A stretch of DNA of 64,000 nt. It comes from Candidatus Shapirobacteria bacterium (GTDB taxonomy: Bacteria; Patescibacteriota; Microgenomatia; UBA12405). Shown in pieces: positions 854-44,419 of the stretch. Under the pieces are notes generated by a model that saw only the letters and a list, made by a program, of their open reading frames with translations, was not told where the DNA came from and ran no database searches. Each line of letters starts with the position of its first letter. The first letter of the stretch is position 1. The position numbers were made by a program, and so were the translations under genes. The stretch lies in NCBI GenBank assembly GCA_018062705.1, contig JAGORQ010000002.1, positions 7,450 through 71,449 of the forward strand, written 5' to 3'.

Positions 854-856
854 TCT

Positions 857-2051: not shown

Positions 2052-2162
2052 ATTTAACCATTAAACCATTTATCATTTTTCATTGAAAACAAAAGAATAA
2101 GTAAATAATTGAATCAATGGTTAAATGGTTCAATGTTACAATGATAAATTTTTCAAATAATT
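2052..2162. repeat. R1 element, copy 3 (full)
   Basis: Near-identical to copy 2. Confidence 0.85.
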
Positions 2163-2567: not shown

Positions 2568-2578
2568 TCCTAGATTTT

Positions 2579-3032: not shown

Positions 3033-3095
3033 TATATCTTCAACCATTCCAATGGTTAAATGATAAATGATAAATGATAAATTTTTCAAATAATT
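3033..3095. repeat. R1 element, copy 4 (right-half only)
   Basis: ccaatggttaaatgataaatgataaatgataaatttttcaaataatt. Confidence 0.6.
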
Positions 3096-3464: not shown

Positions 3465-3466
3465 CT

Positions 3467-3787
3467 ATGAAATTACACAAAGGTGATATCGTCAAAGTTC
3501 TCATCGGCAAAGACAAAGGCCGCGAAGGTGAAATCCTCCAAGCTTTTCCCAAAAAAGGTCAAGTTTTAGTCAAGGGTCTCAATATTTTCAAAAAACATCT
3601 CAAAGCTACCCAAAACCAAGCTGGTAGCATTATCCAAAAAGAACGTCCTTTTGTCACTTCCAAAGTCGCTCTAGTCTGTCCTCAATGCAAAAAAACTACT
3701 CGTGTTGGTTACCAAATCGACAAAGAAGGCAACAAATATCGTGTTTGCAAAAAATGTCATCAACTCATTAATACTAAAACCAAATAA
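3467..3787 (+). CDS. rplX: 50S ribosomal protein L24 with C-terminal Cys4 zinc-ribbon extension
   Basis: KGDIVKVLIGKDKGREGEI KOW motif; C-terminus has CPQC...CKKC. Confidence 0.88.
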   Translation: MKLHKGDIVKVLIGKDKGREGEILQAFPKKGQVLVKGLNIFKKHLKATQNQAGSIIQKERPFVTSKVALVCPQCKKTTRVGYQIDKEGNKYRVCKKCHQLINTKTK

Positions 3788-3789
3788 TT

Positions 3790-4326
3790 ATGGCCATTAC
3801 CAAAGTCCAACAATCAGTCACCGAGAATCTCAAAAAGTTGTTGCCCAAACACAACCTCAATGCCTTGCCCAAACTAACCAAGGTAGTTCTCAATTATCGA
3901 ATTTCCGAAGGTCGCGATAGTCAAGAAAATCTCAATAATGCACTCGCCGAAATTACTGCCATCGCCGGTCAAGTTCCCAAATTATGTAAATCAAAAACTT
4001 CTATCGCCAACTTCAAACTTCGTGAAGGCGAACCTTTGGCCTACAAGGTCACTCTTCGCGACAAAAGAATGTACGATTTTGTTGAAAAACTTTTCAATTT
4101 AGTTTTACCTCGTCTTCGCGACTTCAAAGGCATGCCTCTAAGTTCATTTGATAATGAAGGCAATTACAACCTAGTGATTCGTGATCAGACCTATTTTCCC
4201 GAGATTAATTTAGACAAGGTCACCAAAATTCGTTCAGTCCAAGTCACACTTTGTATTTCTTCCTCTTCAAAAGACGAATCAAAAATGTTATTATCCACCC
4301 TAGGTTTTCCGTTTGAGAAAATCTAA
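3790..4326 (+). CDS. rplE: 50S ribosomal protein L5
   Basis: L5 signature ...[30 protein letters not shown]... Confidence 0.92.
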
Positions 4327-4343
4327 TTTTTAAATTTAATTTA

Positions 4344-4529
4344 ATGGCCAATTTAGCAAAAAAAATCCGCGAAACCAAAAAACTCAACTATTCAGTTAGA
4401 CATCACAACCGTTGTCAACTCTGTGGTCGACCTCGTGGTTTTATTCGTTTATTTGGACTTTGCCGACTTTGTTTTCGCAAATTGGCTCACACTGGAGTTT
4501 TACCAGGTGTCAAAAAATCCAGTTGGTAA
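4344..4529 (+). CDS. rpsZ: 30S ribosomal protein S14 type Z (zinc-binding)
   Basis: 61 aa, CQLCGR...CRLC zinc-ribbon form of S14. Confidence 0.9.
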
Positions 4530-4535
4530 ATTATT

Positions 4536-4922
4536 ATGATTACTTCACTCACCACCGATTTTATTATCAGAATCAAAAATAGCGCTCTCGCTGGACGGAA
4601 GAGTTTTAAGGCTCCTTCATCCAAGTTCAATCGAAGCCTAGCCGAAACCCTCAAACGTAATGGTTTTGTCTCAGCCTATGCTGTGTCCGAAGATTCTCGA
4701 ACTATGACGGTTGATTTTGCCCTAAACAACGATGAACCAAAAGTTTCCGGAGTCAAGTTATTTTCCAAACCTGGTCGTCGCTGGTACGAAACAGCCCTTT
4801 CCCTCCCTTGGGGTCAATCAAAAGAATCCTTAATTATAGTTTCAACTAGTAGCGGTGTTATGTCCCAACGTGAAGCCAAAAAACTTGGCATCGGTGGCGA
4901 AATTATCGCTGAGATTTATTAA
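4536..4922 (+). CDS. rpsH: 30S ribosomal protein S8
   Basis: TDFIIRIKNSALAGRKSF...; operon order. Confidence 0.9.
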   Translation: MITSLTTDFIIRIKNSALAGRKSFKAPSSKFNRSLAETLKRNGFVSAYAVSEDSRTMTVDFALNNDEPKVSGVKLFSKPGRRWYETALSLPWGQSKESLIIVSTSSGVMSQREAKKLGIGGEIIAEIY

Positions 4923-5037
4923 AAGAATTTAACCATTAAACCATTTATCATTTTTCATTGAAAATATAAAAATAAAACAAAAACTTGAATCAATTGCTAA
5001 ATGGTTCAATGTTACAATGATAAATTTTTTTTAAATT
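4923..5037. repeat. R1 element, copy 5 (full)
   Basis: aatttaaccattaaaccatttatcatttttcattgaaaat...gctaaatggttcaatgttacaatgataaatt. Confidence 0.85.
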
Positions 5038-5577
5038 ATGTCTAGAATCGGTCGAAATCCTATCACTATCCCCGCCAACGTCACTGTTACCGTCACTGGT
5101 CGCACAGTCACCGTTGTTGGACCACTTGGTACTCTCAACTTGGCCTTACCTCTCAAAATTAATGTCGAGGTCCGCGACGGTATTGTTTATGTTACTCGCG
5201 TCTCTGAAGATAAAAAAGTCAAAGCATGTCACGGATCAACTCGAGCTCATATCCAAAACATGGTCACTGGTGTCGTCACTCCCTGGAAAAAAGAAATGGA
5301 AATCAGAGGCACTGGTTACAAGTTCACCCTTCAAGGCAACAAATTAGTTGTCAATGCTGGCTACATCCATACAGTTGATGTCGTCGCCCCCACCGGTATA
5401 ACTTTTACTGTCCCAGATGACTCCAAACTAACCATTACTGGTACCGACAAAACAGTTGTTGGTCAAGTCGGTAGCAATATTCGTAAAATCCGCAAACCTG
5501 AACCTTACAAAGGCAAAGGTATCCGTTATCTCAATGAATTTATCAAATTAAAAGCCGGTAAAACCGCCAAAGCCTAA
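5038..5577 (+). CDS. rplF: 50S ribosomal protein L6
   Basis: MSRIGRNPITIP...; two L6 repeats. Confidence 0.92.
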   Translation: MSRIGRNPITIPANVTVTVTGRTVTVVGPLGTLNLALPLKINVEVRDGIVYVTRVSEDKKVKACHGSTRAHIQNMVTGVVTPWKKEMEIRGTGYKFTLQGNKLVVNAGYIHTVDVVAPTGITFTVPDDSKLTITGTDKTVVGQVGSNIRKIRKPEPYKGKGIRYLNEFIKLKAGKTAKA

Positions 5578-5692
5578 GGCACAATTTAACCATTAAACCA
5601 TTTATCATTTTTCATTGAAAACAAAAGAATAAAATATAATTGAATCAATGGTTAAATGGTTCAATGATAAATGAAAAATTTTTTATAAAATT
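5578..5692. repeat. R1 element, copy 6 (full)
   Basis: Near-identical to copy 2. Confidence 0.85.
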
Positions 5693-6034
5693 ATGATCCA
5701 CGATCGAACCCTCAAACGACAAAAAAGAGTCCGCGCCAAAATCTCCGGAAATCTCGGTATTCCTCGCCTTAGTGTTTTCCGTAGCAACACTCATTTATGG
5801 GCCCAAGTTATCGACGATAAACACGGCAAAACTCTTGCCTCGGCTACTACCAAAAACCTCAAAGACATCAAAGGCACCAAAACTGAAAAAGCCATTGCTT
5901 TAGGTGAAGTTATTGCCAAATCTGCTCTCAAAGCCAACGTTATCAAAGTTCGTTTCGACAGAGGGTCCTACAAGTATCATGGACGCGTCAAGGCCTTAGC
6001 CGACTCTGCCCGCGAACATGGCCTTAAATTTTAA
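5693..6034 (+). CDS. rplR: 50S ribosomal protein L18
   Basis: [18 protein letters not shown]...[17 protein letters not shown]. Confidence 0.92.
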
Positions 6035-6130
6035 TATATTTAACCATTTAACCATTTATCATTTAACCAATAATTAAAAACATTTAATCAATAATTAAAT
6101 GGTTCAATGTTACAATGGTTCAATAATTTT
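6035..6130. repeat. R1 element, copy 7 (divergent)
   Basis: tttaaccatttaaccatttatcatttaacc...attaaatggttcaatgttacaatggttcaataatttt. Confidence 0.7.
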
Positions 6131-6607
6131 ATGTCCGATTTTGAAAATAAACAAATTAGAAAAATGGATCGTCCTGAGTCCGAATTTACCGACAAAGTCG
6201 TCGAAATCAAACGTGTTTCCAAAAAAACCAAAGGTGGAAATCAAATCGGTTTTACTGCCTTAGTCGTCACCGGTGATAAAAAATCCCGTGTCGGTGTCGG
6301 TCATGCCAAGGCCAAAAGTGTGGCCGATGCCATTCAAAAAGCCATACGCCGTGGTCGTCGCGATATGCTGACTGTCAAAACCAACAATGGCACAATTATT
6401 GGCGAAATCAAATTCAAATTCAAAGGTTCGATTGTTCTACTTCGTCCTGGTAAACCAGGTTCTGGTCTAATTGCTGGCGGTCCTGTCCGTTCTGTAGTTG
6501 AGTTGGCTGGAATCAAAGACATTGCCTCCAAAATCATCGGTTCCAAAACCAAATCAATTAACGTTTGGGCAACCCTAAAAGCCCTCACCCTTTTACAAAA
6601 AAATTAA
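6131..6607 (+). CDS. rpsE: 30S ribosomal protein S5
   Basis: VVEIKRVSKKTKGGNQIGFTALVVTGD...; the track ORF starts at 6107 inside repeat, so ATG 6131 is preferred; L30 does not follow. Confidence 0.88.
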   Translation: MSDFENKQIRKMDRPESEFTDKVVEIKRVSKKTKGGNQIGFTALVVTGDKKSRVGVGHAKAKSVADAIQKAIRRGRRDMLTVKTNNGTIIGEIKFKFKGSIVLLRPGKPGSGLIAGGPVRSVVELAGIKDIASKIIGSKTKSINVWATLKALTLLQKN

Positions 6608-6704
6608 CCATTTATCATTTTTCATTTATCAAAAAATAAAAAAAATAACCAATCATCAAATCAATGAAAAATGGTTAAATGATAAATGATAAATTCTTTC
6701 TAAT
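6608..6704. repeat. R1 element, copy 8 (divergent)
   Basis: aaccatttatcatttttcatttatc...caatgaaaaatggttaaatgataaatgataaatt. Confidence 0.7.
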
Positions 6705-7124
6705 ATGGATATTCTAAACAATCTAACTCAAACAGTTGATAAACCCGCTCGTCGTCTCGGTCGGGGATATGGCTCCAAAAAAGGTGGTCACACTTCATCT
6801 CGTGGCTCCAAGGGAGACAAGGTCAGAGGCAAAACCAAAATCACTTTCGATGGTACCAAAATCAAAAAAGGCTGGATTAAGCGCACCCCCTTCCTTCGAG
6901 GCAAACACCGAACTCTCAAAATGAGTATCAATGCAATTTTTCAACTCGAACAAATCGACAAAATGTTCAAATCAGGTGACACCGTAGATGCCAAAACCCT
7001 CAATTGTGCCACTGCCAAAATTTTGTCAAAAGGTGATATTACCAAAGCTCTCAACTTCCGTGGAGTCAAAATGTCTGAATCAGCCAAGGCCAAAATTATC
7101 GCAGCAGGTGGTAAGATAGACTAA
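6705..7124 (+). CDS. rplO: 50S ribosomal protein L15
   Basis: [23 protein letters not shown]...; directly follows S5. Confidence 0.9.
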
Positions 7125-8404
7125 TGAATCAGTTCATCAAGTCGCTCTCAATTTATTTTGAAGGCTTCAAAACACCGCTACTTCGTCATAAACTTTTATT
7201 CACTTTAGGAATTCTTATCGCCTTCCGTTTCTTGGCCCACGTTCCCGTGCCCGGCGTCAACCTAGACTTGCTTCGCAGTTTTTTTGCCCAAAATCAGGTA
7301 CTCTCTTTACTCAACATTTTCTCTGGCGGTACTTTAGCCAACTTTTCCATAGTTGCTTTGGGTCTAAACCCTTATATCAATGCTTCGGTCATGTTGCAAT
7401 TGCTCACCCTAGTCTCTCCCAAGTTAGAAGAATTAAGTAAAGAAGGTGAGTATGGTCGTGCCAAAATAAACCAATATACTCGAATCATCACCATCCCTCT
7501 GGCAATTGTTCAGTCTTTGGGTATGTATGGCATTCTCAAATCACAAAACATTATTGGTGGCCTTAGTCCATTGTTATTAGTCGCCTTGGTTAGCACCATG
7601 GTTGCCGGCACCATGATTATGATTTTCTTAGGCGAACTTATCAACCAATATGGAATTGGTAACGGTATTTCTGTTATCATCTTCGCCGGTATCATTGCTC
7701 AACTGCCGGTTAGTTTTGTTCAAACTCTCAGTGTCACCGACTTTAGTAACCCCCAAAACACAATTAATTTAATAATTTTTGCCGCTGTAGCCATCGCCCT
7801 TGTTTTTGGAATAGTTATGGTTGAGGAAGCAGTTCTTCGCATTCCGGTTCATTACGCCAAGCGCGGTCAGGTTACCTATCTTCCCATCAAAGTCGATACG
7901 GCTGGTGTCATGCCAATAATTTTTGCAGTCTCTCTGGCTACCGCCCCCTCGTTAATTGGTCAGTTCCTGTCCAAGCTTTCTAATCCAGCTATTGCCCAAG
8001 CCGGCCTTACTCTATCCCGTTTTTTCCGAACCGATAGTGCCCTATATATACTATTTTATTTCCTGCTCGTTATCGGTTTTACTTATGTTTACACTTCGGT
8101 AGTTTTCAAACCCAAAGACATTGCCGACGAACTCCGCAAATCTGGTGGCTTTATCCCCGGTATCCGCCCTGGTCAGTCCACCGAAAAACGCTTGGAATAT
8201 TTAATTAACCGGGTCATTGCTATCGGTGCCTTGTTTCTCGGTGTCATTGCCGTCTTCCCCTCAATTATCCAAAGTATGACCGGCATCACCACTCTCACCA
8301 TCGGCGGTACTTCGGTCCTGATTGCTGTCTCTGTCGTCATCGAGCTCACTCGCAAAATCGAAAACGTCGTCCAAACATATAACTACGACAAACTAACTTA
8401 TTAA
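7124..8404 (+). CDS. secY: preprotein translocase subunit SecY
   Basis: 426 aa, 10 TM, SecY motifs, follows L15. Confidence 0.93.
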
Positions 8405-8419
8405 CACTTTTGTATCATT

Positions 8420-8755
8420 TTGAAAAAAATATTTTTTTCAATCTTAATAATAGTCTCACTTTTTGTTGTTTCATTAGCTTATACATTCGGCTATTCGTTA
8501 AAACAAAATAATCCCAATCCAGACAAAGGTTGTTTTGTAGGAGGCTGTAATGGTGGCGATATTTGTAGCAATACCAAGGATATTTGGGGCAACTGTGTTA
8601 GTCGAAATGATTTTTGTTACAAAGTTGATAAGTGCGCCATGGTTTCCCAAAATAATTGTCAATTTCGACCAACTTTCAACTCATCAATTTGTTGGGTTGC
8701 CCAAGCACCAGTATTATTAGTCCAAAAAGTTATTGAGTTTATAAACAATATCTAA
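8420..8755 (+). CDS. small Cys-rich secreted protein (10 Cys), hypothetical; TTG start
   Basis: Signal peptide MKKIFFSILIIVSLFVVSLA then CFVGGCNGGDIC...; sits between secY and adk, which is an unusual place. Confidence 0.5.
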   Translation: MKKIFFSILIIVSLFVVSLAYTFGYSLKQNNPNPDKGCFVGGCNGGDICSNTKDIWGNCVSRNDFCYKVDKCAMVSQNNCQFRPTFNSSICWVAQAPVLLVQKVIEFINNI

Positions 8756-8758
8756 AAT

Positions 8759-9343
8759 ATGCCGTTAAACCTTTTTATCATTGGACCGTCCGGCTGTGGT
8801 AAAACTACCCAGGCCAAGCTGATTGCTGAAAAATACAAAATTGATCACTTGTCCATGGGTCAGCTTCTCCGCGATGAAATCACCAAAGGTAGTGGTTTTG
8901 GAATTGAAGCCAAAAAATATATCGACGATGGCAAGCTCGTCCCCGATGATTTAGTCTTTGATGTTCTGATTACCAAGCTCAAGGCTCTCAATTTCGATAA
9001 TTTTATAATTGACGGTTTTCCCCGGGTCTTAAACCAAGGTCGGATTATTGAATATTATCTTCGCAAAAATAACATGCCGATTACTGCCCTAATTCACTTA
9101 AGTGTCACCTTTGCTGAAATTTCTGCCCGAAGGGCTAAAATGGGGGATTCATTTCAAGATAAAACCCGCACCGACAATTCCCCCGAAGATATTGCTAGTC
9201 GTCAAAAATTCTATGATGACAATATCGAAGGTATCCGCGACTATTTCACCCGCAAAAGCGAATTTATCGATATCGACGGCAACCGCCCCATCGAGCCCAT
9301 ATTTGCCGATGTTATTAAGGCAATAGATAAATTAAGAAAGTAA
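8759..9343 (+). CDS. adk: adenylate kinase
   Basis: IIGPSGCGKTTQAKLIAEKY P-loop; LID/NMP regions. Confidence 0.9.
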   Translation: MPLNLFIIGPSGCGKTTQAKLIAEKYKIDHLSMGQLLRDEITKGSGFGIEAKKYIDDGKLVPDDLVFDVLITKLKALNFDNFIIDGFPRVLNQGRIIEYYLRKNNMPITALIHLSVTFAEISARRAKMGDSFQDKTRTDNSPEDIASRQKFYDDNIEGIRDYFTRKSEFIDIDGNRPIEPIFADVIKAIDKLRK

Positions 9344-9369
9344 AGTAGGGGCTCGACTTGCTCGAGCCC
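9341..9369. repeat. R2 hairpin, intergenic subtype, after adk stop
   Basis: taaagtaggggctcgacttgctcgagccc. Confidence 0.8.
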
Positions 9370-9378
9370 AAAAATCAA

Positions 9379-9780
9379 ATGCTCGAAATTCCTGAAGAAA
9401 TTAAAAAACTCTGCGAAAAGTCCATTATCGCTTTTTCGACTTGCTCACCAACCGGACAACCAAACACTGTGGCTGTAGCTTGTGCTGTTGCCATTTCTCC
9501 AAATCAAGTTTTAGTCACCGATAATTTTTTCAATAAAACCAGACAAAATCTAATAAACAATCAACAGGTTTCACTAACATTCTGGAATTTAGAACAAAGT
9601 TTAGACGGTGCCGGTTACCAATTTAAAGGTACGGCTCAAGTAATTACGACCGGAGAGTTAAAAGAAAAAGTTGATCAAATGGAATGTAATCAAGGTTTAG
9701 CTCACAAAGCGGCTATACTTGTAACCATCACAGAAATCTGGGATTTAGCCAATCCGCATTTAATTTGTCAAGAAACTTAA
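9379..9780 (+). CDS. pyridoxamine 5'-phosphate oxidase-like FMN-binding split-barrel protein (putative)
   Basis: AFSTCSPTGQPNTVAVACAVAISPNQVLVTDNFFNKTRQNL; the track start 9358 lies inside the R2 repeat, so ATG 9379 is preferred. Confidence 0.5.
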   Translation: MLEIPEEIKKLCEKSIIAFSTCSPTGQPNTVAVACAVAISPNQVLVTDNFFNKTRQNLINNQQVSLTFWNLEQSLDGAGYQFKGTAQVITTGELKEKVDQMECNQGLAHKAAILVTITEIWDLANPHLICQET

Positions 9781-9849
9781 GTCACTTAAGTAACCCAAGC
9801 AACTTACGACTTTATCCCGTATAATAAACCGAATTACAAATTTCAATTT

Positions 9850-10053
9850 ATGAAAGAACCAACCGTCAAAGCTACTGTTACAGAAGTCCTCCCCAACCAA
9901 CTTTTTCGGGTGGAACTCGAAGACAAAAGATTAATTGTTGCCTACCTTGCAGGCAAACTCAAGATGAATCACATTCGTTGCCTCGCTGGCGACAAAGTTA
10001 GTGTCGTTTTGTCTCCCACCGAAGACAAAGCCCGCATTGTTTATCGGGGATAA
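9850..10053 (+). CDS. infA: translation initiation factor IF-1
   Basis: 67 aa S1-like OB fold, ...IRCLAGDKVSVVLSPTEDKARIVYRG. Confidence 0.9.
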   Translation: MKEPTVKATVTEVLPNQLFRVELEDKRLIVAYLAGKLKMNHIRCLAGDKVSVVLSPTEDKARIVYRG

Positions 10054-10072
10054 TTTACCCCAAATTTACTCT

Positions 10073-10101
10073 TTGATATTAACTAGCATTTAGGTTACAA
10101 T
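10073..10101 (+). promoter_or_regulatory. sigma70-like promoter TTGATA-17-TACAAT upstream of rpmJ-rpsM-rpsK-rpsD-rpoA-rplQ
   Basis: ttgata (10073-10078), 17-nt spacer, tacaat (10096-10101). Confidence 0.45.
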
Positions 10102-10174
10102 ATCCAAGTCTTTATCGCTTATCTAAAAAATGCCATCATTTAAATTAATAATTGCTTCTAATTCGGCACTGCCG

Positions 10175-10217
10175 TCCCCTTGCCCTGTCAAGGGAAAGGG
10201 CTAGGGTTAGGGTTTTA
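10175..10217. repeat. R3 hairpin family (degenerate copy) in 5' UTR of the rpmJ operon
   Basis: tccccttgccctgtcaagggaaagggctagggttagggtttta. Confidence 0.6.
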
Positions 10218-10219
10218 AT

Positions 10220-10333
10220 ATGAAGGTCAAATCAAGCATCAAACGTCGCTGCAAAAACTGTCAAGTCGTTATTCGTAACGGAGTTAGACGGATTATTTGT
10301 TCCACCAAAAAACATACCCAAAAACAGGGTTAA
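10220..10333 (+). CDS. rpmJ: 50S ribosomal protein L36
   Basis: MKVKSSIKRRCKNCQVVIRNGVRRIICSTKKHTQKQG, 37 aa; below the track's 60-aa cutoff, found by hand. Confidence 0.9.
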   Translation: MKVKSSIKRRCKNCQVVIRNGVRRIICSTKKHTQKQG

Positions 10334-10339
10334 TTTTCC

Positions 10340-10756
10340 ATGAGAATCTCAGGTGTCGAAATCCCCGATAATGAAAGAGCCGAAGTCAGTTTGACTCGCT
10401 TTTATGGTATCGGTCCCAAAAACGTTATTGCCTTAGCCAAGGCCGCCAAAATCGACCTCAACACTCGTACCAAGGATTTTTCCCGCGACGATATTGGTAA
10501 TTTAATGAAAGCTATCGAAGAATTCAAAGTTGAAGGCGATCTGAAGAAAGAAGTCCGCGAAAATATTGATCGTCTCAAGGCTATTAAATGTTATCGTGGT
10601 ATCCGCCACATTGTTTCCCTTCCAGCTCGTGGTCAACGCACCAAAAGTAATGCTCGTACTCGCAAGGGTAAGAAGAAAACTGTCGGTTCATTAACCAAAG
10701 AAGCCTGGGCAAAAATCGAAGCTCAACAAAAAGCAGCTACTATTGCCAAAAAATAA
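10340..10756 (+). CDS. rpsM: 30S ribosomal protein S13
   Basis: MRISGVEIPDNERAEVSLTRFYGIGPKN... Confidence 0.92.
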   Translation: MRISGVEIPDNERAEVSLTRFYGIGPKNVIALAKAAKIDLNTRTKDFSRDDIGNLMKAIEEFKVEGDLKKEVRENIDRLKAIKCYRGIRHIVSLPARGQRTKSNARTRKGKKKTVGSLTKEAWAKIEAQQKAATIAKK

Positions 10757-10762
10757 AATCAC

Positions 10763-11176
10763 ATGACAGAAGAAATCAAAAAAACCACCAAATCAAAAGT
10801 TCCTTCAAAGAAGAAGGTAGTTAAGAGCATTGCCGAGGCCACTCTTACCGTCAAATCTAGTTTCAACAATACCATTGTTACTGTTTCCGACATGAAAGGA
10901 AACACTCTCACTTGGTCTTCAGCTGGTCATGCTGGATTCAAGGGTGCCCGCAAGTCCACCCCGTATGCCGCTACCACCGCCATCGAGAAAGCACTCGAGG
11001 CTGCTAGACCCTATGGAATCAAAAAATTGGCTGTATATCTCAAAGGACCCGGTGTTGGTCGCGATGCCGCGCTTCGCTTCCTCCGTGCCAAAAGAGAATA
11101 CGATGTTGACATTATTGCTGATGTCACTCCAATTCCCCACAACGGTCCTCGTCCTTCAAAGGCCCGTAGAGTTTAA
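10763..11176 (+). CDS. rpsK: 30S ribosomal protein S11
   Basis: ...AGHAGFKGARKSTPYAATTAIEKALEAARPYGIK... Confidence 0.92.
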   Translation: MTEEIKKTTKSKVPSKKKVVKSIAEATLTVKSSFNNTIVTVSDMKGNTLTWSSAGHAGFKGARKSTPYAATTAIEKALEAARPYGIKKLAVYLKGPGVGRDAALRFLRAKREYDVDIIADVTPIPHNGPRPSKARRV

Positions 11177-11284
11177 AAATTAAACCATTTAACCATTTTT
11201 CATTTATCATTCAATAAATATTCAAATAACTAAAACCCCCAATGGTTCAATGGTTAAATGAAAAATGATAAATTTTTCTAATTT
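11177..11284. repeat. R1 element, copy 9
   Basis: aaaccatttaaccatttttcatttatcatt...caatggttcaatggttaaatgaaaaatgataaattttt between rpsK and rpsD. Confidence 0.75.
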
Positions 11285-11917
11285 ATGTCAAGAATCACAT
11301 TAGATAGTAAATGCCGACTCTGTCGCGCCGAGGGTTGCAAACTCTATCTCAAAGGTGCTCGCTGTTTGTCAGCCAAGTGTCCAATTGAGAAAAAAGGTGC
11401 AGTTCTCCCCGGTATGCATGGTGCCAAGCGTGTCAAAAAGCCAACCGATTACGGTATTCAGCTTCGTGCCAAGCAAAAAGCCAAACGTATTTACGGCGTC
11501 CAAGAAACTCAGTTCCGCAATTACTTCCTCAAAGCCAAGGCTCTCAAGGGTCTTTTGAGCGACAACTTTTTAGTTCTCCTCGAGCGACGCTTAGACAATG
11601 TGGTTTATCTTGCCGGTTTGGCCGAGTCCCGTTCCCAATCCAAACAACTCATTTCCCATGGTCATGTTTTGGTCAATGGTAAGCGCCTATCAATCGCCTC
11701 ACATTCTCTCAAAGTTAATGATGTCGTCACTTTAGACAAAAAAACCATTGCTCGCACTGCCGATTCAATGAAATTGGTCGAAAAAGACTTCAAAGTCAGC
11801 AGCTGGCTTGAACTAGATAAATCAAAATATACTGTTTCGGTCAAGTCACTGCCTTCAACAGACGACTTCAACCGCAACATTGATATCAATTTAATCATTG
11901 AATATTATTCCCGATAA
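11285..11917 (+). CDS. rpsD: 30S ribosomal protein S4 (zinc-ribbon N-terminus)
   Basis: CRLCRAEGCKLYLKGARCLSAKCP...; S4 domain. Confidence 0.9.
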   Translation: MSRITLDSKCRLCRAEGCKLYLKGARCLSAKCPIEKKGAVLPGMHGAKRVKKPTDYGIQLRAKQKAKRIYGVQETQFRNYFLKAKALKGLLSDNFLVLLERRLDNVVYLAGLAESRSQSKQLISHGHVLVNGKRLSIASHSLKVNDVVTLDKKTIARTADSMKLVEKDFKVSSWLELDKSKYTVSVKSLPSTDDFNRNIDINLIIEYYSR

Positions 11918-14269: not shown

Positions 14270-14998
14270 ATGTCCATTCTCCATGCCATCATTCTCTCTC
14301 TTATCCAGGGTATCTCCGAATTCCTCCCTATTTCCTCCACCGGCCATCTGCATTTATTCCAGTATTTTCTAGGCATCACCCCCTCCCTAACTTTCGACAT
14401 TTTTCTCAACACCGCCTCTTTGCTTTCAGTTTTGTTTTTCTTTCGCAACCAAACCAAATACTTCTTCAATAATCTTCTATATATAATCGTTGGCACCATT
14501 CCGGCAGTTTTGGTCGGTTTACTCTTCAAAAGTCAGCTCGAAACCATTTTTGCCAACAATTCGCTTCTTTGGTCCCAGTTCCTATTTTCTGGGATCGCCT
14601 TATTTCTCACTCGCTATATCAAGCCCAAGGATGAAAAAATGACCTTCGGTAAGGCACTAATTATTGGTATCTTCCAGGCCCTGGCCATCATTCCCGCCAT
14701 TTCCCGTTCCGGTTCAACCATCTTTGCTGGACTGCTTCTAGGTCTCAGCCCGCTTGCCGCCTTCAACTTTTCCTTTAGCTTGTTTATTCCTGCTTCCATC
14801 GGTGCACTAGTTCTCGATATCAAAGATTTGGTCAACATGGGTGCCCTTACCCCAGTATTTATCTTTTCCTTCATCCTTACCTTCTTGGTCGGTGTAGTTG
14901 CCCTCTCCTATCTCAAAAAAGTCCTCCTCGGTCGCCATTTCTGGCTATTTGGTATCTACATGCTCCTCCTCTCCCTCTTCTGCTATATAGTCCTATAA
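14270..14998 (+). CDS. uppP: undecaprenyl-diphosphatase
   Basis: GISEFLPISSTGHL hallmark, 8 TM. Confidence 0.9.
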   Translation: MSILHAIILSLIQGISEFLPISSTGHLHLFQYFLGITPSLTFDIFLNTASLLSVLFFFRNQTKYFFNNLLYIIVGTIPAVLVGLLFKSQLETIFANNSLLWSQFLFSGIALFLTRYIKPKDEKMTFGKALIIGIFQALAIIPAISRSGSTIFAGLLLGLSPLAAFNFSFSLFIPASIGALVLDIKDLVNMGALTPVFIFSFILTFLVGVVALSYLKKVLLGRHFWLFGIYMLLLSLFCYIVL

Positions 14999-15000
14999 CA

Positions 15001-15029
15001 TTGACAAAGTGACCATATTTTGCTAGAAT
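15001..15029 (+). promoter_or_regulatory. sigma70-like promoter TTGACA-17-TAGAAT
   Basis: ttgaca 15001-15006, 17-nt spacer, tagaat 15024-15029. Confidence 0.6.
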
Positions 15030-15034
15030 TGTTA

Positions 15035-15180
15035 CGAATAACCAAATCACACAATAGCTGTGTAATCACGGTTATTCATGTTCTTCTGATATTCTTCCGA
15101 CTTAGTCGGAATAAATCAGAAATGCGAATCTGGCTTCGCCAGGTTGCACTTTAAAAAATCGCGGATAGGATCTTCCTTTG
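15035..15180 (+). ncRNA. conserved structured 5' leader, copy A (unclassified candidate cis-regulatory RNA)
   Basis: Hairpins gaataacc...ggttattc, acaca-atagc-tgtgt, ccgac-ttag-tcgg, ctgg-cttcg-ccag, then aaaaaatcgcggatagg; paralogous to 16230-16345 with compensatory stem changes. Confidence 0.5.
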
Positions 15181-15286
15181 AAACTTTGGGCTTACGAATC
15201 TGAAATCGGAGTAATCCAATCAGAACTTCAACCGTTAGGTTGATTTCAGTCAGTAAGTCCAAAATATATTTCAAGAGGAGTTAGAC

Positions 15287-16054
15287 ATGTTAAACAAAGT
15301 GCTCGGCAAGATCGAACGTGGTTATGCCAAGTTTGTGGCGTGGATGATGGTTCTACTCGGAATTCTGGTTCAGTTCCAGCAATTAAATGCGTTAGGTCTG
15401 TTCAAGATTGCCGACTGGTTCGAAAGTGGAATCATCTCGCAAAGTTGGGGAGTTGCCATTGCCAATAAGCTTTACATTCTCGAACAGTTGTTATACCAAC
15501 TGCAAGGGATGATCTCAAGCTTGATGGCTATTTTCGGCTGGTACTCCGCCCGCAGTTTCGCTGGTTGGTTCCTGGTTATCACTGGGTCCGTTCTGCTTAT
15601 CAGCAAAATGAAGGCGACGGACGAAAGTCCCAAACAGGTAAATTACATCTTGGTGACACTCAAGTTTTTCAACTTGTTTGTAGCAGGCGTGCTCGTATTT
15701 GTCTGTTACTTCACTGTCACCATGTTGTATTTTCCTGATTTGGCGTTCTCGGTAGAGAGTATGTGGAACAGTTGGTTCGGAATATTCAACACTCTAGACG
15801 CCATGGTGATCTACTGCCTGGTTGCTCTCGGCTCCGCGAACCTCCTGATTATTGGAGAGTTCTATAAGCAACCAAAAGCCGGTTGGGTAATTTGGTGTTG
15901 CAATATTTTGATGGGCATAATCTGGATTGTTATGGAGACGCCATCGAATGCTGTTTCACTCGACTCTGCCATGATCTTGCTTGTCTTTACCACCGCCTTC
16001 CACACAATTTCTTCACTGACCATCATGTTCACGGGAGCACCGGAAACCAAATAA
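15287..16054 (+). CDS. hypothetical polytopic membrane protein (about 6-7 TM)
   Basis: 255 aa, hydrophobic; SD agaggag 8 nt upstream; preceded by structured leader A. Confidence 0.6.
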   Translation: MLNKVLGKIERGYAKFVAWMMVLLGILVQFQQLNALGLFKIADWFESGIISQSWGVAIANKLYILEQLLYQLQGMISSLMAIFGWYSARSFAGWFLVITGSVLLISKMKATDESPKQVNYILVTLKFFNLFVAGVLVFVCYFTVTMLYFPDLAFSVESMWNSWFGIFNTLDAMVIYCLVALGSANLLIIGEFYKQPKAGWVIWCCNILMGIIWIVMETPSNAVSLDSAMILLVFTTAFHTISSLTIMFTGAPETK

Positions 16055-16066
16055 ATCTATCCGCGC

Positions 16067-16135
16067 CCTCGGCACAAACTGACCTTGGTCTCCCTTCGGG
16101 GAGACCAGCGTTGGTTGTGCTGAGGAAATTTTTAT
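16067..16135 (+). terminator. long imperfect palindrome plus T-run (terminator), paralogous to 17169-17240
   Basis: cctcggcacaa...ggtctcc cttcg gggagacc...ttgtgctgagg aaatttttata. Confidence 0.6.
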
Positions 16136-16197
16136 ACAATTCACACTTATTTATTTGACATTTTTAATCTAGATTTTTGACATTTAGTCTCATAATA

Positions 16198-16226
16198 TTG
16201 AAATATTAGCAATTTATTGCTAAAAT
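16198..16226 (+). promoter_or_regulatory. sigma70-like promoter TTGAAA-17-TAAAAT
   Basis: ttgaaa 16198-16203, 17-nt spacer, taaaat 16221-16226; aligns with promoter A relative to the leader. Confidence 0.45.
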
Positions 16227-16229
16227 AGC

Positions 16230-16345
16230 CGAAATAATCAAACCATACAAACGCTGTATGATGTTGGTTATTTAAGCACTTCCCGATGCTCACTTCGTTC
16301 GTTCGGGATGGTTATCCAGCTTCGCTGGGTAGCACATTAAAAAAT
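16230..16345 (+). ncRNA. conserved structured 5' leader, copy B
   Basis: cataca-aacgc-tgtatg, cccga...tcggg, ccag-cttcg-ctgg, cacattaaaaaatcgcggataggg. Confidence 0.5.
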
Positions 16346-16440
16346 CGCGGATAGGGATTATTTTTGGACTGAAGAATTAGTTTAAACAACAACAATGTTG
16401 TTAACTATCATTCGGTCCAAAAAAGGAGAATTGTAAGAAA

Positions 16441-17160
16441 ATGAATAAGAAATTGTTTTGCGTTTTGATGGCAGGGATCTTATTCCTTGCTGCTTGTGGC
16501 ACACCTGCTACAAGTATCACCCCGACTGTTGCACCAGTTGTGGCAACAGAAACCCCCACCTCAGCCCCAACCCCTACTTTGGAGCCCACCAATACTCCCA
16601 CCCCGGAGCCCCTTTACTTCGAAATGGATCTATATCTAGCTCAAAAGCAGGACAATCAGTGGGGGATTGGTCACACAACAGAAGAGAGGTGTAAAATTAC
16701 ATTGGATGAGGATGGCAGTAATAGTGCTATCAGGAAATTTCTACTGAACTGTCAATATGATACGGAAAATTCTATTAAGTTTCCGTTTTTGGTCCAGGTA
16801 GTTCATAACGCACAGCAATCCATCGAAACAGTCATGGAAACTAGGGTGGAGCAAATAAGTGTGGTCGCCTACGACTGCACCACACTGAGAGACGGTGGGT
16901 TTCAGTCGATTTCGACTCACTTCAACGGCGCCACAACTATTGGCTTCAGTTTGATCGAAGGAAGGGGTGTATTGCATTACGACGATGCGGGCAATTCGGA
17001 GGCGAGTGAAATGGTGAACGCGACAGTTCCGTCTCTTGGTAACAATCAAGCGTATCTGTTCATCTCCTCTGATGCAAGTAACGTGTTTATCCAAATTTGG
17101 GACATCATGTGTAACGAGCAGTTGTTCCAAAAGGAGACAGTCATTATCTCCTATCCCTAG
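16441..17160 (+). CDS. lipoprotein with PT-rich linker, hypothetical
   Basis: MNKKLFCVLMAGILFLAACG lipobox; TPTPEP linker; SD aaaggag. Confidence 0.65.
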   Translation: MNKKLFCVLMAGILFLAACGTPATSITPTVAPVVATETPTSAPTPTLEPTNTPTPEPLYFEMDLYLAQKQDNQWGIGHTTEERCKITLDEDGSNSAIRKFLLNCQYDTENSIKFPFLVQVVHNAQQSIETVMETRVEQISVVAYDCTTLRDGGFQSISTHFNGATTIGFSLIEGRGVLHYDDAGNSEASEMVNATVPSLGNNQAYLFISSDASNVFIQIWDIMCNEQLFQKETVIISYP

Positions 17161-17168
17161 TCCGCACG

Positions 17169-17240
17169 CCTCGGCACAACCCAAAAATTGGGTCTCTCGA
17201 AAGAGAGACCCGATCAATGGATGTGCTGAGGAAATTTTTA
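17169..17240 (+). terminator. long imperfect palindrome plus T-run (terminator), paralog of 16067-16135
   Basis: cctcggcacaac...gggtctctc gaaa gagagaccc...atgtgctgagg aaatttttata. Confidence 0.6.
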
Positions 17241-17293
17241 TAACAACTTACATTATTTTAGAATTTAGGTTTTAGAGTTTAGAGTTTTTTGCC

Positions 17294-17452
17294 TCAAGCC
17301 TCTCCCAGTCTCTTGTTCAACTTATCCCACACAATATCCGTCAGATTATCCAGCGCGCTAATTATCACTTTTCGCTGATGTTTCGGTTTTTTCTTCTCCG
17401 CTTCTTCCAAATCAACTTTCCAGATTACTTCAATTGGTTCCTGAATTTGCAT
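17294..17452 (-). CDS. small hypothetical protein (52 aa), possible operon partner of 17470..18510
   Basis: MQIQEPIEVIWKVDLEEAEKKKPKHQRKVIISALDNLTDIVWDKLNKRLGEA; found by hand, below the track cutoff. Confidence 0.25.
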   Translation of the reverse strand: MQIQEPIEVIWKVDLEEAEKKKPKHQRKVIISALDNLTDIVWDKLNKRLGEA

Positions 17453-17469
17453 TCAATCATTATACCATC

Positions 17470-18510
17470 TCATTTCACATACTTGTCAGTCACCGCCGAC
17501 ACGTAGGCCACGAAATTATTATCCCCCTCAAATACAAACACTGGTTGCATGTAATTGGTCAAGTTCATCGGTTCAAAAAACGCCAAATAAATTTTTCTAA
17601 TGGTGGCACTATTGCCCACCGAATCATACGCTGGCCAGTAATTTCCTATTTTAAGGTCATTTACTGCCTGATCAACCGTTTTTATCGGGTAAGTTCCAAA
17701 CGACTCTCGATCAATTGGTGAATAACGGTAATTTACTTCAATTGCTTTTCGGTTTTGAATTGATGAACCTGTCAGCACCACCGACACCGTCGCCGAGTTA
17801 ACATCAGCGGTTACGATTTTATATTTACTCTCCAAGTCTTGTCGGAAAAAATCCACTCTCGTAACATTAGCTTCTGATTGCGACGACACTGCCTTCAATC
17901 CACTATATTCAATTTTCCAAAACGACACTTTTTGCAACCCGCCCACCAGATCGGTTGGCAGTTTGTCCGCTTGGCCCAAATACGACTTTGCTTCCAGTAG
18001 CGCTTCATCTTTACTCAGCACTTTTTCTGGGTTAAGCAGCATTTGATCAGTTTCGTAGGGGTATTTCAAATGAAAACTCCCATCCAACACATTCATGGTT
18101 AGTTTCAGACTCGAAGTACTATTAGTAAATTCATAAATACCGTAGCCAACTTCTTTGGGCTCATCTTTAAAGCCCAAATCAGCCGCCGTCTTTTTGTCTT
18201 GCTCCAAGGCCAAAAATGCTGTATCCGGTCTAGCCACAAAATAGACTCTAAATTTGTCATCTACTGTGGGGAACTTATCATTGGGCATTTCAAAGGTGAA
18301 ATTCTTTTTATCAAATTTTTTTGCTGGGAACTGAATCTTGGGCAACACTCCATATCGGGTATCGGGCGGAACGTATGGTGGATGGGCTGCAATCCAGGCA
18401 TTTATCCCCCAGGTAATTACTGTATATAGCACAAAAAAGCTTCCAAAAATAACTCCACTGTACTTCACCAATCTCCGGGTGACATAGGCGGTATAAGTTA
18501 ACGACGACAT
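17470..18510 (-). CDS. hypothetical membrane-anchored protein (N-terminal TM)
   Basis: 346 aa ORF, one N-terminal TM, no recognisable motifs. Confidence 0.6.
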   Translation of the reverse strand: MSSLTYTAYVTRRLVKYSGVIFGSFFVLYTVITWGINAWIAAHPPYVPPDTRYGVLPKIQFPAKKFDKKNFTFEMPNDKFPTVDDKFRVYFVARPDTAFLALEQDKKTAADLGFKDEPKEVGYGIYEFTNSTSSLKLTMNVLDGSFHLKYPYETDQMLLNPEKVLSKDEALLEAKSYLGQADKLPTDLVGGLQKVSFWKIEYSGLKAVSSQSEANVTRVDFFRQDLESKYKIVTADVNSATVSVVLTGSSIQNRKAIEVNYRYSPIDRESFGTYPIKTVDQAVNDLKIGNYWPAYDSVGNSATIRKIYLAFFEPMNLTNYMQPVFVFEGDNNFVAYVSAVTDKYVK

Positions 18511-44415: not shown

Positions 44416-44419
44416 ATTG

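What the first reader, a model, noticed from the sequence alone, without database searches (positions are those of the whole stretch)
16067..17240. Paralogous 60-70 bp imperfect palindromes with conserved outer arms close both units (cassette-like architecture)
- After both genes the sequence ccgc(g/a)c(c/g)CCTCGGCACAA...inner GC hairpin...(t/a)TGTGCTGAGGaaatttttata recurs.
- The outer arms (cctcggcacaa / ttgtgctgagg, G-U tolerant) are conserved. The inner hairpin differs but stays paired (ggtctcc-cttcg-gggagacc versus gggtctctc-gaaa-gagagaccc).
- They are followed by a T-run, so they most simply read as Rho-independent terminators.
- With the paralogous 5' leaders, the gene looks exchangeable between conserved flanks, as in a gene-cassette system. 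I considered integron attC sites: the imperfect-palindrome layout is similar, but the outer arms do not match the RYYYAAC/GTTRRRY core and no intI is nearby.
Basis: seen in the sequence. Interest (0 to 1): 0.55.

Follow-up and report, generated by a model that had tools for sequence, protein, structure and literature searches.

The report
Shared leader–terminator frame around orphan genes
Two neighbouring, unrelated orphan envelope genes in a Shapirobacteria (CPR) genome each sit in the same self-contained expression frame (promoter, structured 5' leader, long terminator hairpin); this looks like transcription termination plus a possible 5'-3' mRNA pairing, and it fails the tests for an integron-type cassette system.

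Summary
Hairpins at 16067-16125 and 17169-17231 (-44 and -42 kcal/mol, z about -7.7) share identical outer arms and an identical 21-nt 3' arm plus tail. Their inner stems differ but stay paired. Each closes a complete unit: a sigma-70 promoter, a roughly 250-nt structured leader homologous between the units, an unrelated orphan CDS (a polytopic membrane protein and a lipoprotein), and the hairpin with its T-run.

In five related Shapirobacteria loci, uppP directly abuts a convergent 52-54-aa gene. The two units are therefore a 2.3-kb insertion.

A third unit, in a distant metagenome contig (L136), carries the only homologue of gene 1 (33% aa) inside the same frame. There the hairpin is a canonical intrinsic terminator, and the flanks are better conserved than the CDS.

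G·U pairs, UUCG/GAAA tetraloops and compensatory changes point to RNA-level function on the coding strand.

An invariant leader motif (CGCGGAUAGG) is complementary to the motif just 5' of each hairpin. This is significant against shuffles in the window units and weak in L136.

No attC cores, integrase or further copies were found.

Verdict: paralogous terminators within a duplicated UTR frame. The cassette-like layout is real, but a cassette mechanism is unsupported.

The parts
14270..14998 (+). uppP (BacA), the left border of the insertion. Its stop codon lies 2 nt before the -35 box of unit 1.
   Evidence: Pfam PF02673, E 7e-56; synteny in relatives
15001..15029 (+). Unit 1 promoter: TTGACA-17-TAGAAT with TG extension (11 of 12 matches).
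   Evidence: homologous to the unit 2 and L136 promoters
15036..15077 (+). Unit 1 leader hairpin P1, a 5'-terminal stem-loop with an inner 5-bp stem.
   Evidence: 7 pairs with compensatory change across 3 units
15084..15148 (+). Unit 1 leader hairpins P2 and P3. Both are present in the two window units and absent in L136.
15150..15169 (+). Unit 1 single-stranded leader motif TTTAAAAAATCGCGGATAGG. CGCGGATAG at 15160-15168 is complementary to 16057-16065.
15185..15264 (+). Unit 1 leader hairpin P4, a long stem with conserved base UUUGGRCU/AGUCCAAAA just 5' of the SD (GAGGAG, 15275-15280).
15287..16054 (+). CDS 1: a 255-aa hydrophobic membrane protein and near-orphan. Its only homologue is P0123 (33% aa over residues 124-249).
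16057..16065 (+). Unit 1 pre-hairpin motif CTATCCGCG, complementary to the leader motif.
16067..16125 (+). Hairpin 1: 11-bp conserved outer stem, two inner stems, UUCG loop. It is the terminator / 3' stem-loop of unit 1.
16126..16136 (+). Tail AAATTTTTATA, identical in both units.
16198..16226 (+). Unit 2 promoter: TTGAAA-17-TAAAAT with TG extension.
16232..16333 (+). Unit 2 leader hairpins P1, P2 and P3.
16337..16358 (+). Unit 2 single-stranded leader motif TTAAAAAATCGCGGATAGGGAT. GCGGATAGGGAT at 16347-16358 is complementary to 17153-17165, leaving one G bulged.
16361..16423 (+). Unit 2 leader hairpin P4. The SD AGGAGA at 16424-16429 follows directly.
   Evidence: (I12)
16441..17160 (+). CDS 2: a 239-aa predicted lipoprotein (signal peptide ending LAAC|G, PT-rich linker). 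It is a complete orphan.
17147..17165 (+). Unit 2 pre-hairpin motif TCTCCT-ATCCCTA-G-TCCGC, overlapping the last codons and the stop codon. It is complementary to the SD and to the leader motif.
17169..17231 (+). Hairpin 2: 10-bp conserved outer stem, inner 12-bp stem, GAAA loop. It is the terminator / 3' stem-loop of unit 2.
17232..17242 (+). Tail AAATTTTTATA.
17294..17452 (-). Conserved 52-aa gene, the right border of the insertion. In relatives it lies 0-25 nt from, or overlaps, the uppP stop.

Best explanation
The two palindromes are the Rho-independent terminators, or at least the 3'-end stem-loops, of two tandem, self-contained transcription units.

The units share one UTR frame:
- a sigma-70 promoter;
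- a leader of about 250 nt, made of a 5'-terminal hairpin P1, optional hairpins P2/P3, the single-stranded motif UUUAAAAAAUCGCGGAUAGG, and a long hairpin P4 next to the SD;
- the CDS;
- a short motif CUAUCCGC;
- a hairpin of about 60 nt followed by a U-run.

The frame is ancestrally tied to the gene 1 family, because the same frame surrounds the gene 1 homologue in a distant genome. In this genome the frame was duplicated in tandem, and in one copy the CDS was replaced by, or recruited, an unrelated lipoprotein gene. The pair lies inserted between uppP and a conserved small gene.

The outer arms, tail, pre-hairpin motif and leader motif stayed identical while neighbouring sequence diverged to about 70%. 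The likely reason is that they act in the RNA: the base of the terminator stem with its U-run, and a 9-12-bp helix between the 5' leader and the 3' UTR. By analogy with hbs and icaR mRNAs, such a helix would tune mRNA stability or translation.

What is shown: the anatomy, the homology of the flanks, the unrelatedness of the CDSs, the insertion, the RNA-strand bias and the complementarity. What is inferred: termination itself, the 5'-3' pairing in vivo, and the duplication-plus-replacement history.
For: - Position and strand: the hairpins start 8-12 nt after the stop codons, on the coding strand, and are followed by a T-run.
- Third unit: in L136 the homologous hairpin (-48 kcal/mol) is followed directly by TTTTTTATT, which is a canonical intrinsic terminator.
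- RNA-level signature: a G·U pair is kept in the invariant outer stem, and every hairpin folds 4.5-9 kcal/mol better on the + strand than on the - strand. The loops are UUCG and GAAA.
- Compensatory pairs across three units: 5 in the hairpin, 7 in P1 and 6 in P4.
- Complete units: strong promoters at 15001 and 16198, and SDs.
- Flanks homologous, CDSs not.
- Frame inherited with gene 1: in L136, promoter, P1, motif, P4, pre-hairpin motif and hairpin all align. Flank identity is 55-77% nt against 33% aa / 55% nt for the CDS.
- Insertion: uppP abuts the 52-54-aa gene in L121, L123, L124/L125, L141 and L142.
- Native composition: GC3 is 0.51-0.59 against 0.55 in uppP.
- 5'-3' complementarity: cofold puts the leader motif onto the pre-hairpin motif in all three units, with ddG of -15.7, -19.8 and -7.6 kcal/mol. 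Of 150 shuffles of the pre-hairpin segment, 0, 0 and 28 reached the observed value.
- Non-neutral conservation (arithmetic): at about 70% background identity, uninterrupted identity over 19-25 nt has a probability of about 1e-3 to 1e-4 per block.
- Known precedent: hbs has a 14-bp 5'/3'-UTR helix that modulates RNase Y cleavage (PMC5737220), and icaR has a 3'-UTR/SD pairing (PMC3868564). Related Shapirobacteria encode RNase Y.
Against: - In the two window units, three A's separate the stem from the U-run. This is atypical for efficient intrinsic termination, and the simple scanner did not call the full hairpins.
- There are no transcript data.
- Only three units are known, and two of them are paralogues. 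Covariation statistics are therefore weak.
- The 5'-3' complementary motifs are conserved on both sides rather than clearly covarying.
- In L136 the complementarity is only 7-8 bp and is not significant against shuffles.
- Identity of the outer arms between the two window units could partly reflect gene conversion rather than selection.
- The route by which the second CDS entered the frame is not documented by any intermediate.
Confidence: 0.6

Rival explanations
1. Mobile gene cassettes. The hairpins would be recombination sites, attC-like or of a new kind, folded from single-stranded DNA. Each promoter-leader-gene-hairpin unit would then be an exchangeable cassette, inserted at the uppP junction by a site-specific recombinase.
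For: - The architecture is an imperfect palindrome with conserved outer arms and a variable paired centre.
- The cargo genes are orphans.
- The block is an insertion relative to relatives.
- The same junction carries a different extra gene in L140.
- The third unit sits in a different genomic context, next to tRNA genes.
Against: - No exact R''/R' attC cores and no consistent near-match pair.
- No tyrosine recombinase among the ORFs scanned. The only recombinase is a large serine recombinase 25 kb away, on a tRNA-Gln island.
- Each unit has its own promoter and a 250-nt leader, unlike cassettes.
- The hairpins favour the + RNA strand through G·U pairs.
- Only 2 copies in 64 kb, and none in 120 kb of related loci.
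- Zero hits in metagenome and viral scans.
- No match in phage or plasmid records.
- Host-like GC3.
- No convincing target-site duplication.
Confidence: 0.08
2. 3'UTR-derived small RNAs. Each 3' end (single-stranded seed CUAUCCGCG, then hairpin, then U-tail) would be released or accumulate as an sRNA. It would pair in trans with the CGCGGAUAGG motif of its own leader and of the neighbouring unit, cross-regulating the two envelope genes.
For: - The layout of seed plus terminator hairpin plus U-tail is the standard anatomy of sRNAs from mRNA 3' ends (review PMC9438474).
- The 3' UTR is better conserved than the CDS.
- Cross-pairing energies between leader X and 3' UTR Y are as good as the cognate ones: W1 with W2 gives -14.5, and W2 with W1 gives -11.7 kcal/mol.
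Against: - There are no expression data.
- No Hfq/ProQ evidence was sought or found here.
- The seed in unit 2 overlaps the coding sequence.
- The same complementarity is explained equally well by pairing in cis.
Confidence: 0.12
3. Processing or stability hairpins without termination. The long, interrupted 25-30-bp helices would be RNase III-type substrates or 3'-exonuclease barriers. They would define and stabilise mRNA ends while transcription reads through, as with phage T7 inter-genic RNase III sites (own knowledge).
For: - Helix length is at least two turns, with internal loops.
- The AAA spacer weakens a classical terminator.
- No terminator lies between uppP and unit 1, so read-through transcripts are likely.
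Against: - The L136 homologue has a perfect U-tract at the stem.
- A T-run is conserved in all three units.
- Each unit has its own strong promoter, which makes polycistronic processing unnecessary.
Confidence: 0.12
4. DNA-level inverted repeats. CGCGGATAG ... CTATCCGCG would flank each gene as recombinase sites for gene inversion (an inverton-like switch), or as operator pairs for a DNA-binding protein.
For: Perfect 9-bp (unit 1) and 12-bp (unit 2) inverted repeats bracket each CDS. GGATAGG/CCTATCC is kept in L136.
Against: - No invertase is adjacent.
- Two independent assemblies show the same orientation.
- The repeat in unit 2 has a 1-nt bulge. This is tolerable in RNA but unusual for recombinase sites.
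- The promoter lies outside the repeats, and the leader motif sits in an otherwise RNA-structured region.
Confidence: 0.03
5. A plain tandem duplication whose similar flanks are just residual homology with no special function. The palindromes would be generic terminators.
For: The two units are adjacent and in direct orientation, only two copies exist here, and this genome carries several other repeated intergenic hairpin families.
Against: - The CDSs share nothing at all while the flanks keep 70-100% identity.
- Identity is concentrated in short blocks of 11, 19 and 25 nt, against a 70% background.
- The same frame is retained in a genome whose CDS is only 33% identical.
Confidence: 0.05

Closest known systems
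Rho-independent (intrinsic) terminators
   Same: A GC-rich stem-loop on the coding strand a few nt after the stop codon, with stable UUCG/GAAA tetraloops and a downstream U-run. The L136 homologue is textbook.
   Different: The stems are unusually long (about 25-30 bp, with internal loops). In the two window copies an AAA spacer separates the stem from the U-run. The base of the stem, the tail and an upstream 9-12-nt motif are sequence-conserved between unrelated genes.
5'/3'-UTR base-pairing in bacterial mRNAs (B. subtilis hbs, PMC5737220; S. aureus icaR, PMC3868564)
   Same: A structured 5' UTR carries a segment complementary to a 3'-UTR segment next to the terminator. The helix is 9-12 bp here, against 14 bp in hbs. 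In unit 2 the 3' segment also covers the SD, as in icaR. Related Shapirobacteria encode RNase Y.
   Different: The pairing is only predicted here. The same pair of motifs serves two unrelated genes and a distant homologue. The helix, the terminator hairpin and an A-run/U-run could form a three-way junction, which has not been described for hbs or icaR.
Phage morons (PMC3594210)
   Same: Independent transcription units (own promoter, one gene, own terminator) inserted between two genes that are adjacent in relatives. They often encode envelope or accessory proteins.
   Different: There is no prophage context and no phage or plasmid similarity. Composition is host-like. The units share a long structured leader, which is not a feature of morons.
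Integron gene cassettes / attC sites (including CALIN clusters)
   Same: An imperfect palindrome 3' of each orphan ORF, with conserved outer parts and a variable paired centre. The arrangement is tandem.
   Different: There are no R''/R' cores and no IntI. Each unit has its own promoter and a long leader. The hairpin is optimised for the top (RNA) strand and is followed by a U-run. Only two copies are present.
sRNAs derived from mRNA 3' ends (PMC9438474)
   Same: A conserved single-stranded segment followed by the mRNA's own terminator hairpin and U-tail. The 3' UTR is more conserved than the CDS.
   Different: The putative target is the 5' leader of the same and the sister mRNA. There is no evidence of processing or of a chaperone.
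Conserved 5' regions of variable surface-lipoprotein gene families in Mycoplasma (vlp/vsp; own knowledge, not checked here)
   Same: Near-identical promoter and leader regions sit in front of divergent envelope-protein genes in tandem.
   Different: Those families share signal peptides and repeats and vary by slipped-strand or site-specific switching. Here the proteins are unrelated and no switch element is seen.

Membership tests
Integron attC site / gene cassette | R'' (RYYYAAC) and R' (GTTRRRY) core sites at the outer ends of the palindrome | tested here: not met
   Regex on all three hairpins found no exact match and no consistent one-mismatch pair. The conserved outer arms are CCTCGGCACAA/TTGTGCTGAGG.
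Integron attC site / gene cassette | Integron integrase (tyrosine recombinase IntI) adjacent, or a cluster of attC sites (CALIN) | tested here: not met
   Pfam scan of 35 window ORFs found no Phage_integrase hit. The only recombinase is a large serine recombinase at 42179-43672. Only two hairpins of this type occur in 64 kb. The IntegronFinder attC covariance model was not available.
Integron attC site / gene cassette | Promoterless cassette with a short 5' region | tested here: not met
   Each unit has a 10-11/12 sigma-70 promoter with TG extension and a leader of about 210-250 nt.
Integron attC site / gene cassette | Recombinogenic bottom-strand fold with extrahelical bases | tested here: inconclusive
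   The top strand folds better than the bottom strand in all three hairpins (-45.9/-39.7, -42.1/-37.6, -48.1/-38.7 kcal/mol with RNA parameters). DNA folding and extrahelical-base geometry were not assessed.
Rho-independent terminator | Stable GC-rich stem-loop downstream of the stop codon, on the sense strand | tested here: met
Rho-independent terminator | U-tract immediately 3' of the stem | tested here: inconclusive
   L136 has TTTTTTATT abutting the stem (met). Both window copies have AAA and then TTTTT.
Rho-independent terminator | Transcript 3' ends at the U-tract | not testable with these tools
   No transcriptome data are available here.
5'/3'-UTR interacting mRNA (hbs / icaR type) | Complementary segments in the 5' UTR and 3' UTR that are predicted to pair | tested here: met
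   RNAcofold pairs the motifs in all three units. The result is significant against shuffles in W1 and W2 (0 of 150 each) and not in L136 (28 of 150).
5'/3'-UTR interacting mRNA (hbs / icaR type) | Covariation or experimental proof of the long-range helix | tested here: inconclusive
   Both motifs are conserved. The only register difference is UAGGGAU/AUCCCUA in unit 2 against UAGGAU/AUCUA in unit 1. Three units are too few.
Phage moron | Autonomous promoter-gene-terminator unit inserted between genes that are adjacent in relatives | tested here: met
Phage moron | Located in a phage or prophage genome | tested here: not met
   The neighbours are ribosomal-protein genes, uppP and gltX. There were no phage hits.
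Any Rfam family (riboswitch, ribozyme, leader, sRNA) | Match to a curated covariance model | tested here: not met
   Only a tRNA reached gathering threshold in the window. At E<=10 the region 14950-17350 gave only chance-level hits of 19 bits or less.

The most novel reading that the evidence does not exclude
The frame may be a portable 'closed-loop' mRNA module of CPR bacteria.

The invariant leader segment UUUAAAAAAUCGCGGAUAGG would pair with the 3' UTR on both sides of the terminator hairpin: CUAUCCGCG before it and the U-run after it. This would build a three-way junction that ties the mRNA ends together. The stop codon would then lie next to the SD-proximal P4 hairpin, and the junction would govern decay, re-initiation or termination.

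Because function would reside in the flanks, new or orphan ORFs could be dropped into duplicated frames and be expressed at once, giving a route for recruiting novel envelope genes. The released 3' ends might additionally cross-regulate sister units.
Probability: 0.2. Interest if true: 0.65.

Novelty: new member of a known kind. Interest (0 to 1): 0.38.

Why it matters
CPR/Patescibacteria genomes are full of orphan envelope genes, and their origin and regulation are unknown. Here two unrelated orphans use the same promoter-leader-terminator frame. The frame is more conserved than the one protein family that can be traced with it.

If the predicted 5'-3' UTR helix is real, it would extend the few known bacterial cases (hbs, icaR) to a reusable module shared by different genes. 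It would also give a concrete, testable handle on how newly acquired or newly born genes become expressed.

If it is not real, the locus is simply a pair of paralogous terminators and leaders left by a local duplication. That is still useful as an annotation of a new, un-catalogued 5' UTR motif.

Tried and rejected
- **Rfam.** At gathering threshold (whole window) and at E<=10 (14950-17350), nothing relevant appeared.
- **Genome-contig scan.** I used the 16-mer AAAAATCGCGGATAGG, which was too short.
- **Metagenome-contig scans.** The hairpin pattern CCTCGGCACAN{25,55}TGTGCTGAGGAAA gave 0 hits. The leader 19-mer gave 5 hits, all in unrelated sequence and apparently coding. Both scans need exact arms, so an L136-type variant would be missed.
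- **Viral-contig scans.** Five patterns were used: 0 relevant hits. The 18-mer tail hit unrelated sequences with no hairpin context.
- **blastn against phage and plasmid records.** No match.
- **Protein searches.** Gene 2 has no homologue. Gene 1 has one homologue.
- **Profile and covariance-model searches.** nhmmer profiles and two covariance models (R1 hairpin, R2 P4) were run over all DNA held, including about 120 kb of Shapirobacteria loci. No further copy was found. One R2 hit inside a DNA-polymerase exonuclease gene in L141 (E 0.0014, rough calibration) was judged spurious.
- **Frame-shift or overprinting origin of gene 2 from gene 1.** tblastn and blastn were negative.
- **AlphaFold2 of gene 2 without an alignment.** pLDDT was 42, which is unusable, and no fold search was made.
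- **Target-site duplication.** Only an AT-rich TATAACA occurs at both block borders. This is too weak to count.
- **Leader peptide.** The 44-aa ORF in leader 1 has no counterpart of at least 40 aa in leader 2.
Full report
**What is there**

Reading 14500-18500 with the ORF list shows two tandem units on the + strand, lying between uppP (14270-14998, Pfam BacA) and a convergent 52-aa ORF (17294-17452, - strand).

Each unit contains, in order:
- A strong sigma-70-like promoter. Unit 1 has TTGACA-17-TAGAAT at 15001-15029. Unit 2 has TTGAAA-17-TAAAAT at 16198-16226. Both have a TG extension, and they are the two best promoter-like sites in 14-19 kb.
- A long leader.
- An SD and a CDS. CDS 1 is 15287-16054 (255 aa, hydrophobic). 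CDS 2 is 16441-17160 (239 aa, lipoprotein-type signal peptide and PT-rich linker).
- A long hairpin (16067-16125 and 17169-17231), followed by AAATTTTTATA.

**Check of the observation**

- Stability: the hairpins fold at -44.0 and -42.1 kcal/mol (z -7.8 and -7.7; no shuffle of 200 is as stable).
- Conserved blocks: the 5' arm CCTCGGCACAA and the 21-nt block TGTGCTGAGGAAATTTTTATA are identical in both copies. The 21-mer occurs twice in the window where 0.01 is expected, even with three mismatches allowed.
- Inner stems and loops differ (UUCG versus GAAA) but remain paired.
- A sliding-window fold of the whole window, both strands, finds no other non-coding hairpin of this strength.
- The leaders are homologous at about 70% identity. 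They share an invariant 19-mer, TTAAAAAATCGCGGATAGG, and three hairpins with compensatory changes.
- An independent Logan assembly of the same sample reproduces everything.

**The genes**

- The two proteins are unrelated (BLASTP E 0.14). They share no nucleotide or frame-shifted similarity.
- Neither matches Pfam or NCBIfam.
- In 5.8 billion clustered proteins, each finds only itself, annotated as a hypothetical protein of a Candidatus Shapirobacteria MAG.
- An exhaustive HMMER scan of 1.84 billion representatives finds one remote relative of gene 1, P0123. It is 33% identical over residues 124-249.
- Their codon-position GC matches uppP, so they look like native coding genes.
- A single-sequence AlphaFold model of gene 2 was unusable (pLDDT 42).

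**The block is an insertion**

UppP homologues of 59-66% identity were traced to their contigs.
- In L121, L123 (same protein as L122), L124/L125, L141 and L142, the uppP stop is overlapped by, or lies within 25 nt of, the stop of a convergent 52-54-aa gene.
- For L121, L123, L124 and L125, that gene aligns with window 17294-17452 at 33-52% identity.
- The 2.3 kb holding both units is therefore lineage-specific.
- In L140 the same junction holds a different extra gene (UPF0259) with no such frame. The junction may simply tolerate insertions.

**A third unit**

The contig encoding P0123 (L136 = L137 = L138; extended as L139) carries the same frame around that gene:
- promoter TTGACT-17-TATAAT;
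- P1, with the inner stem ACAUA/UAUGU in place of ACACA/UGUGU or AUACA/UGUAU;
- the motif UUUAAAAACUGGAUAGGA;
- a long P4 hairpin with the same base (UUUUGGACUUAC...GUAAGUCCAAAA) just 5' of the SD;
- after the stop codon, AACCUAUCCGCC;
- a 75-nt hairpin (-48.1 kcal/mol) followed directly by UUUUUUAUU.

P2 and P3 are absent. RNAalifold on the three units gives compensatory pairs in P1 (7), P4 (6) and the hairpin (5).

Segment identities form a mosaic:
- W1 is closest to W2 in the leader motif (89%), the hairpin (70%) and the tail (77%).
- W1 is closest to L136 in the promoter (76%), P4 (70%) and the pre-hairpin motif (77%).
- Between W1 and L136, all flanks (55-77% nt) are at least as conserved as the CDS (33% aa, about 55% nt).

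So the frame is old, it travels with the gene 1 family, and it is under constraint. Unit 2 is a copy of the frame that holds a different gene.

**RNA rather than DNA**

- The invariant outer stem keeps a G·U pair, and further G·U pairs occur in W1 and L136.
- All three hairpins are 4.5-9 kcal/mol more stable on the coding strand than on its complement.
- The loops are the stable RNA tetraloops UUCG and GAAA.
- Together with the position 8-12 nt after the stop codon and the U-run, this makes a Rho-independent terminator or 3' stem-loop the simplest reading. The L136 copy is canonical.
- The window copies are atypical only in the AAA spacer.

**An extra layer: 5'-3' complementarity**

- Unit 1: the invariant leader motif CGCGGAUAG (15160-15168) is the exact complement of CUAUCCGCG (16057-16065), which ends 1 nt before hairpin 1.
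- Unit 2: GCGGAUAGGGAU (16347-16358) pairs with AUCCCUA-G-UCCGC (17153-17165). The adjacent UCUCCU (17147-17152) is complementary to the SD AGGAGA (16424-16429).
- L136: GGAUAGG pairs with CCUAUCC.
- RNAcofold places these helices in the MFE of all three units. The gains are -15.7, -19.8 and -7.6 kcal/mol. Of 150 shuffles of the 20-nt pre-hairpin segment, 0, 0 and 28 reached these values.
- The leader A-run could in addition pair with the U-run, giving a three-way junction with the terminator. That is my inference from the sequence.
- The closest documented precedents are the 14-bp 5'/3'-UTR helix of B. subtilis hbs, which modulates RNase Y cleavage (PMC5737220), and the 3'-UTR/SD pairing of S. 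aureus icaR (PMC3868564). Related Shapirobacteria encode RNase Y.
- With three units, two of them paralogues, this remains a hypothesis.

**Cassette and attC reading**

- No R''/R' cores were found.
- No tyrosine recombinase appeared among 35 scanned ORFs. The one recombinase is a large serine recombinase beside tRNA-Gln and an Eco47II-type R-M pair, 25 kb away.
- Each unit has its own promoter and a long leader.
- There is no phage or plasmid similarity.
- nhmmer and two covariance models found no further copies in the window or in about 120 kb of related loci.
- Exact-pattern scans of metagenome and viral collections found no copies.

Caveats on these negatives:
- My GTDB scan used a 16-mer that was too short. 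It saturated with chance hits, so that collection was not really searched.
- The other scans needed exact arms and would miss L136-like variants.

Absence of more copies is therefore only weakly established.

**Conclusion**

The palindromes are paralogous terminator hairpins belonging to a duplicated promoter-leader-terminator frame. The cassette-like layout is real, but the evidence favours duplication of a functional UTR frame with replacement of one CDS over any dedicated cassette-exchange mechanism. The leader is an un-catalogued structured 5' UTR with no Rfam match. The conserved complementarity between leader and pre-terminator motif is the one feature that could make this more than ordinary.

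Noticed in passing
window 15150-15169 / 16057-16065 and 16347-16358 / 17147-17165: The invariant leader motif is complementary to the segment just 5' of each hairpin. In unit 2 the complementarity extends to the SD. The leader A-run could also pair with the terminator U-run, which would give a three-way junction.
   Followed up: partly
window 890, 9324, 37459, 37618, 54686, 55160, 61347, 62905 (about 47 nt each): An eight-copy intergenic repeat, GTAAAGTAGGGGCTCGACTTGCTCGAGCCC (a short GC hairpin after a conserved AAAGTA), mostly at gene ends and usually without a T-run. It looks like a REP-like or terminator family.
   Followed up: no
window 473-11285 (about 6-8 copies, e.g. 1294-1413, 2044-2164, 4919-5040, 5576-5695, 6030-6138, 11171-11285): AT-rich inverted-repeat elements of about 100-120 nt (ATTTAACCATTAAACCATTTATCATTTTTCATTGAAAA ... 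AATGGTTAAATGGTTCAATGATAAATGAAAAAT), mostly in spacers between genes of the ribosomal-protein operon.
   Followed up: no
window 20118, 38085, 38670, 53315: A four-copy repeat, TTATCCCCCTCTTATCAAAGAGGGGGTAGGGGGAGATTT (a G/C-run hairpin followed by GGGGGAG).
   Followed up: no
window 32776, 33968, 55802, 56786: A four-copy 47-nt direct repeat, TTGYCTTATTCTTAAATCTTAAATCTTAYTTCTTAAATCT. Its function is unknown.
   Followed up: no
window 42168-45679: tRNA-Gln (CTG), overlapped at its 5' end by the end of a large serine recombinase ORF (42179-43672, -). An Eco47II-type restriction endonuclease and a C5 DNA methylase follow. This is probably a small integrated R-M island.
   Followed up: no
window 31371-32705: A gene made largely of collagen-like GXY triplet repeats (13 or more copies of a degenerate repeat unit, spaced in multiples of 9 nt).
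   Followed up: no
L140 10729-11700: In one related Shapirobacteria genome the same uppP / small-gene junction holds a different extra gene (253 aa, UPF0259) with no leader or hairpin. The junction may be a recurrent insertion point.
   Followed up: partly
window 16137-16197: Between hairpin 1 and the unit 2 promoter there are two further copies of TTTGACATTT, 22 nt apart. They could be extra -35-like boxes or operator sites. The 20 nt after each T-run are also similar among the three units (CAAnTnAC).
   Followed up: no
window 15287-15652: Gene 1 carries an N-terminal half of about 120 aa that is absent from its only homologue, P0123 (143 aa). NCBI annotated the gene as only 181 aa, starting at M75, although a good SD precedes the ATG at 15287.
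   Followed up: no
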